Shown one piece after another: positions 55,001 to 58,000 of a stretch of DNA of 64,000 nt (position 1 is its first letter; every line of letters starts with the position of its first letter). The DNA is from an uncultured Trueperaceae bacterium (GTDB lineage Bacteria > Deinococcota > Deinococci > Deinococcales > Trueperaceae). The stretch covers positions 224,001-288,000 of the forward strand of contig CAVSGP010000009.1 in assembly GCA_963727505.1 (NCBI GenBank). Direction: 5' to 3'. The position numbers were made by a program.

Positions 55001-58000
55001 TCGCAACGGCGGCGGGCGTCGAGGTCGTGAACGTGCTCGACGTCGAGGCCTACCTGCGCGGCGTGGTCCCCGCCGAGATGTCGGCCAGCTGGCCGATGGC
55101 GGCTTTGGAGGCGCAGGCGGTCGCCGCGCGCAGCTACGCGCTCAGCTCCCTTCGCCCGGGGGCGAACTACGACCTGTGCGCTACGGTCGACTGCCAGGTC
55201 TACCGCGGCATGGACGCCGAGCACGCGCGCTCCGACCGGGCCGTGGCGGAGACCGAAGGGATCGTGGTCACCTACGCTGGCCAGGTCGCGCGGACCTACT
55301 ACCATGCCGATTCCGGGGGCGCCACGGCGTCGAGCAGCGAGGTGTGGGGTACTGCCGTGCCGTACCTCGTCGCGCGGGCCGACGCGGCGGCGCCGAGTGG
55401 CGTCGATCGCTGGAGCGTCCGCCTCGATGCTCCCACCGTTGCCGCGTCCCTGGCGCGCCTGGGCAAGCACGTGGGCAACGTGACCGGGTTGCGGGTGCTC
55501 CAGCGCAGCGGCTCGGGCCGCGTCGATCTGCTCGAGGTGCTGGGGAGTTCCGGGAGCGCGACGGTGACCGGCGTGCAGCTCGGCGAGCTGGCCCGCGGTT
55601 GGGGGCTGCGTTCGACGCGGTTCTCGGTGATCTCAGGGCTGAACGTACGGGGCGAAGGCTGGGGACACGGCGTCGGCATGAGCCAGTACGGCGCGCGGGC
55701 GCTGGCCGAACAGAGCTACGACTACACGCAGATCCTCGGCTACTACTACCCCAACACCCGACTCGTTCGGTGGGTCTACAGCACGGCAGGAGGCTGAGCT
55801 CGCCCCGGGACGCGGACTGCCGCGCGTCAGCCGCGTGCCAGACGGACGGCGCTGATCATCTCCTCGATGTCGCCCCGCCCCTCGCTGAAGTCGGCCTGGC
55901 AGGAGTCGAGGAACCTCTCGAGGATCACATCGCCCGTTGCGTCCAAAGCCTTGCGGACGCCCGCGAGGAGGATCAGGACGTCGTGGCAGTCGCGGCCATC
56001 GTCGATCATCTTCTGCAGGCCTCGCACCTGCCCTTCGAGGCGCCTCAGCCGGTTGATGATCTTGCGCTTCTCGTCGTCACTGATGTTCAAGGCTCGCTCC
56101 AAACGGGCCACGCGACCCCAGGGTTGCTGTGGGCGCATCGGTGCAGGCCGTGCCCCGAGCATGGTACCCACTGGGGGTATTATAAGCGATTCGCGGTTCG
56201 CTCGCAGGGACGTGTGGCCCACAGCGGGGCGCGCGCCGCGCCCCGCGCGGTCACGGCGGGGCGGCGCCGACCTGCTACCCTGGAGCCGTGGCACAAGGAC
56301 GGGATCCGGGGTGAACTACGTGGCGCTGCTGGCCGTGCTGGCCGCCACGTCGTTCGTGCTTCCGCTTCTGGTCCAGGGCTGCGAGGTCCTCGGATTGCAG
56401 CGTAGCGCGAGCGTCGCAGTATCTCTGGTACTCGCTTCCGGATGGTTGGCGTTCTGGGTGACCCGCGCCGTCAGGCTGGCAACGCGCCCGCGTGCGCGCG
56501 AAGCGCGGCGTGCTTCGCGCTCCCGGAGGGGCTCGGCCGGAGCCTCCGCGGCCGGCGTTGCCGACGGCACCGCTCTTCGAATGGTGGAAGCCGAGGAGGA
56601 GAGCCGTGCGGGCATATAGGGGGCGCGTCCAGGGCGGGCAGGTGATGCTCGAGGAAGGCGTGCGGCTTCCCGAGGGCGCGACCGTCACGGTCACCATCGG
56701 CGAGGCGGAGTTCATTCGGGCGACGTTGCGTGCCGCGTTGCGACGCAACACCCGCCGCCGGAGCCGCGGCCGGATGCTCAGACCGGTCTATATGCAGGCC
56801 CACGGCCGCGCCCGGTGAGCCGGCTCAGCCTCGTTCCCACCCCGATCGGCAACCTCGAGGACATCACCCGGCGCGCGCTCGACGTGCTGCGGCAGGCCGA
56901 CGTGGTGGCTGCCGAGGACACCCGGCGCAGCCGCGTGCTGCTGGATCACTACGCCATCGCGACGCCGCTCGAGCGGCTGGACGCCCACACCATGGAGGCC
57001 CGGGCGGCGGCGCTTCTCGAGCGTCATGAGCACGTCGCCTACGTGACCGATGCGGGCACCCCCGGGGTCAGCGATCCCGGTGCCGAGCTCCTGCGGCGCG
57101 CCGTGGCGATGGGGATCGCCGTGGAGGCGCTTCCGGGACCCACGGCCTTCGTGCCTGCGCTGGTGCTCTCGTGCCTGCCGGTCGCGCGGTTCACGTTCGA
57201 GGGGTTCTTGCCCCGCAAGGGCGCCGAGCGGCGCCGCCGGCTCGAGGCCGTCGCCGCCTCCACCGCCACGACCGTGCTGTACGAGGCGCCCCAGCGCGTG
57301 GCGGGCACGCTGCGCGACCTCGCTTCCGCCTGTGGGGAGGAGCGGGCGGCCAGTGTCAGCCGGGAGCTCACCAAGCGCTTCGAGACCACCGTGCGCGGCA
57401 CCCTCGCCGCGCTGGCGCAGCGTTACGGCACGGAGCGGGCGCGCGGGGAGATCGTGGTGGTGGTGGGGCCGGCGGAGCCCGCCGATGCCGCCGACGAGCA
57501 CCGGAGAGTGGTCGAGGCGCTCGTCGGCGCCGGTGTGCGGGGCTCCACCCTGCGCACGGCCCTCGAGGCGCTGGGCGTGCCCCGCAACGACGCCTACGCG
57601 GCCGCGCTGCGGTTCCCCGATGGCGCCGCCGACTGAACGCCCGCGAACGATCACGCGTTCGAGGCCTGCCGCGGGGCGGCGGCGCCCGATGTCGGCGGAG
57701 GACCCGGTGACGGCGGGCGACGGGGTAGGATTCATGGGTTGCGCCGACAGGCGCACGGGAGAGAAACCATGCACGTGGCCACGCCCCGTTCGCTTGGGAC
57801 CGGGCGCGTCCTGGGTCAGCCCAGCGCAGCGCGCCTCGCGCTCTTCGCGCGCCACGACGGTCCCGCCATCCTGCTCACCACCTCCGAACGCCTGGAGCTC
57901 TTCGCCGACGCCCACCTGTTCGGTGAGGCCGCCAGCGTCGACCCCGCTCTGACCGACTGGTTCGAACGGCGCGACAAGGTCGTGCTCAGCCTCGACAACG

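What a model noticed while it worked through the whole genome (the two positions that open the first line are those of the whole stretch)
55827..56180. CstR-like persulfide regulon extended to thioredoxin, thioredoxin reductase and PDO
The only CsoR-family gene of the assembly (g02191) keeps both cysteines but lacks the metal-binding His. A TACCC-N5-GGGTA operator lies before it, before persulfide genes (dioxygenase-rhodanese g01918, dsrE-tusA, tauE, DUF302) and, with the best scores, before trxA, trxB and the protein disulfide oxidoreductase g02095. One thiol or persulfide sensor would run the whole thioredoxin system.
Evidence so far: Top matrix hits: g02095, trxB, trxA, g02191, g01872, g01918. 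Perfect 17-mer in 16 of 24 other Trueperaceae, reversed control 0 in all 24. Of 22 loci read, 12 sites precede g02095 orthologues, 2 trxB, 1 trxA, 2 g01918, 1 rhodanese and 1 DUF302. Phe in place of the His of CsoR, RcnR and InrS.
(Added by a program. Inside this text positions count along the whole contig: contig position 224,001 is position 1 of the stretch shown here. "Call 12" and the like, gene names such as g00115 and contig names such as C1 are that model's own, and its searches are not shown. The text may have been shortened before it was handed on; [...] marks where a part breaks off. The agent that wrote the report below was given it as the finding of a first reader that could run no searches.)

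Follow-up and report, generated by a model that had tools for sequence, protein, structure and literature searches.

The report
Sulfur-stress repressor also controlling thioredoxin reductase
A small two-cysteine repressor of a family known for sensing reactive sulfur appears, in relatives of Deinococcus and Thermus, to control sulfur-detox genes and also the cell's main disulfide-reducing enzyme, a link that can be tested in an existing Thermus mutant.

Summary
Largely confirmed, with one correction. Window 55827-56090 (-) encodes the genome's only CsoR-family protein (Cys35, Phe60 for His, Cys64), with an ATAC-N9-GTAT operator on its -10 box. A matrix trained only on regulator promoters of other genera finds sites before 16 of 17 protein disulfide oxidoreductase, 19 of 29 trxB and 16 of 24 persulfide-dioxygenase-like genes in relatives; controls are near zero. 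Sites are mostly absent where the regulator clade is absent. Correction: not the 'whole thioredoxin system'. The site-bearing trxA is an accessory paralogue; the family-wide trxA in this window has no site. The tauE link is weak. T. parvatiensis also has sites before trxB and the oxidoreductase, which that paper did not list, so the existing deletion strain can test this. In Trueperaceae the trxB operator lies at a fixed position near -53. Binding and signal are inferred. The operator is family-generic, and sulfane-sulfur control of thioredoxins is known for OxyR and AdpA. New variant of a known kind.

The parts
55827..56090 (-). CsoR-family repressor, 87 aa, fingerprint x-Cys35-Phe60-Cys64, TTG start
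   Evidence: PF02583 E 3e-23; sole family member; start fits the RBS and the 87-aa closest homologues
56097..56100 (-). GGAG ribosome-binding site, 6 nt before the TTG
   Evidence: sequence
56164..56180 (.). 17-bp pseudo-palindromic operator, one mismatch from ATACCC-N5-GGGTAT, 74 nt before the start; autoregulatory
   Evidence: 18.9 bits on the independent matrix; the same motif found de novo upstream of orthologues in other genomes; a site of 13 bits or more within 300 nt before 17 of 25 clade genes in 24 genomes, and 4 more behind an oxidoreductase gene that has it
56179..56184 (-). TATAAT -10 box overlapping the first two bases of the operator; the predicted transcription start lies inside the operator
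   Evidence: sequence; no -35 box passed the consensus scan; start site not measured
46675..47001 (+). Family-wide housekeeping thioredoxin (WCGPC), 9 kb from the regulator. Counter-example: no operator in this genome
   Evidence: best upstream score -0.6; 27 of 30 best-hit thioredoxins of relatives are closer to this copy than to the site-bearing one

Best explanation
The gene encodes a His-less dithiol CsoR-family repressor of a Deinococcota clade. Shown here by sequence: the residues, a conserved operator, and its placement on promoters. Targets in this genome are the repressor itself, the protein disulfide oxidoreductase, trxB, an accessory trxA, a dioxygenase-rhodanese/rhodanese/SulP/rhodanese operon, dsrE-tusA-sqr-like-DUF1641 and DUF302, and probably a cytochrome c gene and a DoxD-like operon. 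Inferred from CstR and TTHA1953: reduced tetramers bind the operator and block RNA polymerase. Per/polysulfides (or other thiol oxidants) cross-link Cys35 to Cys64 of the neighbouring subunit and release the DNA. The cell then raises both routes of sulfane-sulfur removal: oxidation and export, and NADPH-driven reduction through TrxB to the oxidoreductase or thioredoxin. The reductive arm would also reset the sensor (inferred feedback). At most promoters the operator covers the -35/-10 spacer or the start. At Trueperaceae trxB it lies just upstream of the -35 region (centre near -53), which I read as partial repression of a gene that needs basal expression.
For: De novo motif from orthologue promoters without G000: TACCCCCAGGGGGTA. 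Matrix from 9 regulator sites of other genera; 250 nt upstream, 13 bits: oxidoreductase 16 of 17, trxB 19 of 29 (23 at 10 bits). Reversed matrix, 3' flank and far-upstream controls were all 0 at 13 bits. Dioxygenase-like genes: 16 of 19 in genomes with the clade (one more at -433), 0 of 5 copies in genomes without; the reversed matrix reached 13 bits in 2 of these 24. trxB: 18 of 23 against 1 of 6. Exact pattern: 24 of 24 against 2 of 6; kin are not independent. The oxidoreductase gene lies directly before the regulator in 4 of 24 family genomes and one gene away in M. taiwanensis. In three named Deinococcus loci the regulator lies next to the dioxygenase gene, on the opposite strand. Of 37 further exact sites read, 17 precede or overlap the start of YeeE, SQR-like, SulP, rhodanese or DUF302 genes, and none precedes a recognised peroxidase or catalase. 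At the G000 dioxygenase promoter the 17-mer exactly fills TTGACC..TAGTCT. No homologue (0 of 107) has the Tyr before the first Cys that copper allostery needs (feature from 10.1101/2021.07.25.453692). Sister TTHA1953 represses in vivo, loses DNA affinity on disulfide formation, and its four bound probes contain TAC-N9-GTA (PMC10318464).
Against: No binding, expression or chemistry data exist for this clade. The operator is generic: the matrix scores 20-27 bits before many His-bearing CsoR genes of other phyla, and the S. mitis cst and S. coelicolor operators look alike. So attribution rests on there being one member and on co-loss. Exceptions: G015 lacks the clade yet has a 26-bit trxB site (it has another His-less member in a trxA operon). 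G023 and G025 have the clade but no trxB site. NaHS did not release TTHA1953 while H2O2 and Cu(II) did; persulfides were not tested there. The main trxA has no site in G000. Deinococcus-type genomes have the clade (17 of 24) but no trxB site (0 of 14).
Confidence: 0.7

Rival explanations
1. Same regulon, but the signal is general thiol oxidation (disulfide stress, H2O2, HOCl, copper-catalysed oxidation), not persulfide: a repressor counterpart of Spx or SigR.
For: TTHA1953 responded to H2O2 and Cu(II), not NaHS. trxB and the oxidoreductase are among the most conserved targets, also in families f3 and f4. mnmG has a site in 7 of 24 clade-bearing genomes.
Against: Most other targets are sulfane-sulfur genes, and no peroxidase, catalase or repair gene was recognised. 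CstR reacts with per- and polysulfides, which were not tested on TTHA1953. In Deinococcus the gene sits beside the dioxygenase.
Confidence: 0.17
2. Repression holds at the other promoters, but at Trueperaceae trxB the protein activates or tunes transcription from an upstream position.
For: The gap from the operator to an extended -10 (TGnTAnnnT) is 31-33 nt in 20 of 23 site-bearing trxB promoters, whatever gene lies upstream. A -35-like nn(G/T)ACA follows the operator at a fixed 5 nt but lies 21-22 nt from the -10.
Against: The characterised family members in the papers read are repressors. Activation by the reduced form would lower trxB under stress. In f4 genomes the trxB site lies only 3-10 nt from the -10. 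The -10 boxes are predicted, not mapped.
Confidence: 0.08
3. The trxB and oxidoreductase sites are bound by another protein (copper CsoR, an unassembled paralogue or another family), or are relics.
For: The operator is generic. G000 lacks the whole copZ-csoR-copA operon, which could be unassembled. G015 is an exception.
Against: Copper operons use a different box (TtCsoR did not bind the TTHA1953 consensus). G003 and G013, with only copper-type members, have no exact site. Position and sequence are conserved over three families.
Confidence: 0.05

Closest known systems
TTHA1953 of Thermus thermophilus HB8 (PMC10318464)
   Same: Two Cys with the same spacing and Phe at the His position (T. parvatiensis orthologue L059, C39/C68). 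The TAC-N9-GTA core is in all four bound probes, and the TTHA1326 probe is an exact TACCC-N5-GGGTA. Dispersed sulfur regulon with c-type cytochromes and a thioredoxin-fold gene (SoxW).
   Different: Sister clade, not the same clade: M. taiwanensis has both. No SoxY in G000. TTHA1953-type genes lack the autoregulatory site. trxB and the oxidoreductase are not among its reported targets.
CstR of Staphylococcus aureus, streptococci and Enterococcus (PMC8643695, PMC5480029)
   Same: x-C-x-C fingerprint, no second-shell Tyr, similar operator, and dioxygenase, rhodanese and SQR-type targets.
   Different: S. aureus CstR likely controls a single operon; here nine scattered promoters including trxB. 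Membership of SSN clusters 3, 4 or 10 not shown; TTHA1953 is in cluster 44.
YrkD of Bacillus licheniformis (PMC9918477) and ScCsoR of Streptomyces coelicolor (PMC7533328)
   Same: CstR-type sulfane-sulfur repressors of dioxygenase, rhodanese and TauE genes. The YrkD cluster includes a hypothetical thioredoxin, YdfQ.
   Different: Local clusters; no thioredoxin reductase or disulfide oxidoreductase among the targets in the passages read.
OxyR of E. coli (PMC6831875) and AdpA of S. coelicolor (PMC9952706)
   Same: Sulfane-sulfur-responsive control of thioredoxin genes that reduce sulfane sulfur (abstracts).
   Different: Activators of other protein families; the abstracts do not name control of the oxidative dioxygenase/SQR arm.

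Membership tests
CstR (persulfide sensors) | PF02583 with Cys at X and Z | tested here: met
   Cys35/Cys64; 107 and 104 of 107 homologues
CstR (persulfide sensors) | No His at Y; no second-shell Tyr before the X Cys | tested here: met
   Tyr 97, Phe 9, His 1; Tyr before Cys 0 of 107
CstR (persulfide sensors) | Sulfide/persulfide detoxification genes as neighbours or targets | tested here: met
   operators; adjacent in Deinococcus and Meiothermus, not adjacent in G000
CstR (persulfide sensors) | Member of SSN cluster 3, 4 or 10 | tested here: inconclusive
   the supplement table is cut; the four visible Trueperaceae rows are in cluster 17 and could not be assigned to a paralogue; TTHA1953 is in cluster 44; no NCBIfam model passed its cut-off
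CstR (persulfide sensors) | Persulfide cross-linking releases DNA | not testable with these tools
   needs biochemistry
Copper CsoR / RicR | C-H-C or C-H-H metal site | tested here: not met
   Phe60
Copper CsoR / RicR | copZ/copA neighbours or targets | tested here: not met
   neighbours are spoIID-like and rsmI-like genes; no copA orthologue in G000
TTHA1953 orthologues | Same clade | tested here: not met
   separate branches (99/99 and 96/92) joined at 85/92; both occur in M. taiwanensis (89 of 129 rows, 87 columns)
TTHA1953 orthologues | TAC-N9-GTA operator core | tested here: met
   (the probes score only 3.8-11.8 bits on the central 17 columns of my matrix)
TTHA1953 orthologues | Controls sox genes | tested here: not met
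   no SoxY in G000; the T. thermophilus control rings

The most novel reading that the evidence does not exclude
A CsoR-family dithiol repressor was the ancestral controller of the cytoplasmic disulfide-reducing chain (TrxB, disulfide oxidoreductase, thioredoxin) in this order. It couples reductive and oxidative sulfane-sulfur removal in one feedback loop and fills the role that Spx, SigR or OxyR fill elsewhere. The sox regulon of TTHA1953 would be a later addition to this core, and csoR-trx gene pairs in Chloroflexota, Bacillota and elsewhere would mark an unrecognised thioredoxin-regulating class of the family.
Probability: 0.35. Interest if true: 0.7.

Novelty: new variant of a known kind. 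Interest (0 to 1): 0.52.

Why it matters
CstR-type sensors are described as local switches for one sulfide-detox operon. Here one appears to reach the housekeeping thioredoxin reductase and disulfide oxidoreductase in three families. That would give these organisms a candidate regulator for their thiol-reducing system, which I did not find named in the searches made. It also re-reads a published regulon: TTHA1953's sites are TAC-N9-GTA boxes, and Thermus has such boxes before trxB and between the divergent oxidoreductase and dioxygenase genes. One qPCR on an existing mutant tests it.

Tried and rejected
Counting matrix hits inside G000: not discriminating. Exact 15-mer as the definition: misses most real sites and includes two doubtful ones. 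tauE footprint: found in 1 of 5 close genomes, with a 12-bit site 525 nt away; left as doubtful. Copper sensing: rejected on residues and targets. TTHA1953 20-bp consensus before trxB or the oxidoreductase outside Trueperaceae: best matches had 2-6 mismatches. RNA runs: none was listed. Consensus promoter scan found nothing; promoter boxes were read by eye. Earlier scan notes: one unrelated note, then none. Literature searches that found no CsoR-family control of trxB or the oxidoreductase. The library lacks most subscription papers and RegPrecise was not available; the neighbourhood figures S1/S2 of PMC8643695 could not be seen and may list thioredoxins. PMC11442865 and PMC13019369 (passages) were not relevant. 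No structure or complex job was run. Presence of OxyR, Spx or SigR in G000 was not tested.

Full report
Gene and site. The window is G000 contig C9:224001-288000. The minus-strand gene 55827-56090 encodes 87 aa with Cys35, Phe60 and Cys64. It is the only PF02583 match in a 97.4% complete assembly. Alignments to solved CsoR and InrS chains put Phe60 at the metal-binding His. Among 107 homologues the first Cys is invariant, the second is kept in 104, the His position is Tyr in 97, Phe in 9 and His in 1, and none has Tyr before the first Cys. The operator at 56164-56180 overlaps a TATAAT box.

Is the motif real? Inside G000 alone the statistics are weak: 4 exact 15-mers against about 0.5 expected, and a reversed matrix gives nearly as many high hits. 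I therefore built the motif without G000. De novo search of 15 orthologue promoters gave TACCCCCAGGGGGTA. Nine sites from other genera made the matrix (the same-genus site and five promoters without a site were left out). It ranked nine intergenic sites first in G000. A refined 40-site matrix, which includes trxB and oxidoreductase sites of other genera and so favours them, gave nine sites at 17.7-24.3 bits and then a gap. These precede the disulfide oxidoreductase (TIGR02187 over cut-off), trxB (TIGR01292), a thioredoxin, a dioxygenase-rhodanese operon with SulP, the regulator, a DoxD-like operon, DUF302, a cytochrome c, and dsrE-tusA-sqr-like-DUF1641.

Footprint in the family. I chose 30 high-quality genomes of 29 genera out of the 120 relatives listed. 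At 13 bits within 250 nt upstream: oxidoreductase 16 of 17 (gene found in 17 of 30), trxB 19 of 29, best-hit thioredoxin 5 of 30. Reversed-matrix, 3'-flank and far-upstream controls were 0 throughout at that threshold; at 10 bits the reversed matrix gave 2 of 17, 1 of 29 and 4 of 30. The regulator clade was found in 24 of the 30. With the clade: trxB 18 of 23, dioxygenase 16 of 19, exact pattern 24 of 24. Without it: 1 of 6, 0 of 5 copies, 2 of 6. Kin are not independent, so I give no weight to p-values. The six genomes without the clade carry copper-type C-H-H members; three also have a different His-less member beside a trxA, and one has a Cys-less relic of the clade. Copper operons carry CCCCACCCC..GGGGTGGG boxes instead. 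The oxidoreductase gene directly precedes the regulator in four genomes. Of the 90 exact sites, 75 were listed; I read 37 of the 38 not already explained (one lay at a contig end). Seventeen lie at YeeE, SQR-like, SulP, rhodanese or DUF302 genes, four at mnmG, two at DUF2202; about seven look like chance and the rest are unassigned.

The correction on thioredoxin. G000 has three thioredoxins. The one with the site has close orthologues in only 3 of 30 genomes, two with the site. The other 27 best hits match the copy at window 46675-47001, which has no site here; 3 of those 27 reach 13 bits, 5 with a 16-bp variant. The regulon therefore holds the reductase and the oxidoreductase firmly and thioredoxin variably. 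In Sulfolobus the oxidoreductase takes electrons from thioredoxin reductase in place of thioredoxin (PMC7465337, passages), so the pair is a complete chain by analogy. The G000 protein has only the C-terminal CPYC motif.

Beyond the family. I read 40 of the 65 non-family trxB promoters and 20 of the 36 non-family oxidoreductase promoters found. trxB sites at 13 bits: f4 9 of 12, f3 4 of 7 (all an 18-bp variant), f2 0 of 14, f5 0 of 7. Oxidoreductase: f4 12 of 13, f3 6 of 7. Reversed controls were 0. The clade or its sister was found in f3 12 of 12, f4 23 of 23, f2 17 of 24 and f5 0 of 7. Named genomes: T. parvatiensis has only the copper CsoR and a TTHA1953-type protein, yet has sites before trxB (15.1 bits) and between the divergent oxidoreductase and dioxygenase genes (17.9). 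M. taiwanensis has 23.1 and 28.1. Two Deinococcus trxB loci have none; there the regulator lies beside the dioxygenase.

Relation to TTHA1953. I read parts 1-4 of 6 of PMC10318464 and both supplements. TTHA1953 represses sox and cytochrome genes, binds best when reduced, is weakened by H2O2 or Cu(II) through disulfides, and was not released by NaHS. Its 20-bp consensus can be read as two TAC-N9-GTA boxes offset by 5 bp (my reading), and all four bound genomic probes contain that core. The listed FIMO hits do not include the sequences I find before Thermus trxB or the oxidoreductase (compared by sequence with T. parvatiensis, not by locus tag). A tree of 89 of 129 rows (40 His-bearing rows thinned out; only 87 columns) places the G000 protein in a Deinococcota branch (96/92), sister to the TTHA1953 branch with weak support (85/92). 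M. taiwanensis has both, so they are paralogous clades.

Promoter geometry. At the dioxygenase promoter the 17-mer fills the spacer between TTGACC and TAGTCT; at the regulator, oxidoreductase and accessory trxA it touches the -10 box. At Trueperaceae trxB it ends 31-33 nt before an extended -10 in 20 of 23 cases, so it is centred near -53. I read this as partial repression; activation is the rival. All boxes are predicted.

What is known. The operator class is generic for the family (PMC7533328 passages; 10.1101/2021.07.25.453692 passages and section 4). S. aureus CstR likely controls one operon (PMC5480029 passages). The YrkD cluster includes a hypothetical thioredoxin (PMC9918477 passages). 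OxyR and AdpA induce thioredoxin genes under sulfane sulfur (abstracts only). In PMC8643695 (passages; cut supplement table; figures not seen) TTHA1953 is in cluster 44, outside the persulfide clusters 3, 4 and 10. Nine searches found no CsoR-family control of trxB or the oxidoreductase in this library. The comparison with Spx and SigR, and the role of MnmG, are recalled, not from a call.

Verdict. The regulon is real by comparative evidence (I put direct control of trxB and the oxidoreductase at about 0.85); the signal is open, persulfide most likely. It works like CstR with a wider, scattered regulon; membership of a CstR cluster is not shown. New variant of a known kind; interest 0.52.

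Noticed in passing
L415, L419, L423, L425, L429, L433, L442 (about 20-50 nt before mnmG): mnmG/gidA, divergent from dnaA, has the operator in 7 of 24 clade-bearing genomes and 0 of 6 others at 13 bits; none in G000. A tRNA U34 enzyme under a sulfur sensor is unexplained.
   Followed up: yes
L385, L388, L397, L413 (positions about 900-917): The right half of the operator is the start of a YeeE-type sulfur transporter gene (ATG inside the site) in several genomes.
   Followed up: partly
L070:2530-4282; L097:575-1181; L123:3957-4628: Outside Deinococcota, CsoR-family genes sit directly beside thioredoxin genes: divergent trxA-trxB with a 23.6-bit site in a Chloroflexia genome (His-bearing protein), csoR-trxA in Syntrophomonas and Anaerolineae. 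7 of 80 loci hold a trx gene.
   Followed up: partly
L369:1094-1749; L376; L368: A second His-less type (C-x24-A-x3-C) beside trxA in three family genomes that lack the main clade; a possible replacement.
   Followed up: partly
L370 (G002): Clade member that has lost both cysteines; its genome has no exact operator.
   Followed up: no
L236, L237, L240, L242, L276-L278, L281, L284: Family f3 uses an 18-bp operator (one extra central base) before trxB and the oxidoreductase.
   Followed up: yes
trxB promoters L151-L179: Conserved -35-like nn(G/T)ACA 5 nt after the operator but 21-22 nt from the -10; in AT-rich members it reads TGTACA and could be a reverse-strand -10. Unexplained.
   Followed up: partly
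G000 C15:59460-63901 (L012, L130): Strong site before a 165-aa secreted protein of no Pfam family, a DoxD-like gene, and a frameshifted gene resembling the intact 503-aa gene next to it.
   Followed up: partly
G000 C9:117366 (L009:3969): Site in a TTGACC..TATGGT promoter before a c-type cytochrome, recalling the cytochrome targets of TTHA1953; homology not tested.
   Followed up: partly
G000 whole genome: No copper-type CsoR and no copA orthologue found; lost or unassembled. Three of nine same-genus genomes also have one family member only.
   Followed up: partly
G000 C4:411430; L382: A site between prfB and cdaA in G015 (exact) and G000 (10.2 bits).
   Followed up: no
G000 C9:176245-176898 (L131): A gene that looks like a YtxJ-type bacillithiol redox protein (label recalled, not searched) lies 660 nt after the oxidoreductase.
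   Followed up: no
window 54670-55797 and 56815-57636: spoIID-like gene converging on the regulator and rsmI-like gene beyond its promoter; the spoIID-like neighbour recurs in 12 of 25 regulator loci.
   Followed up: partly
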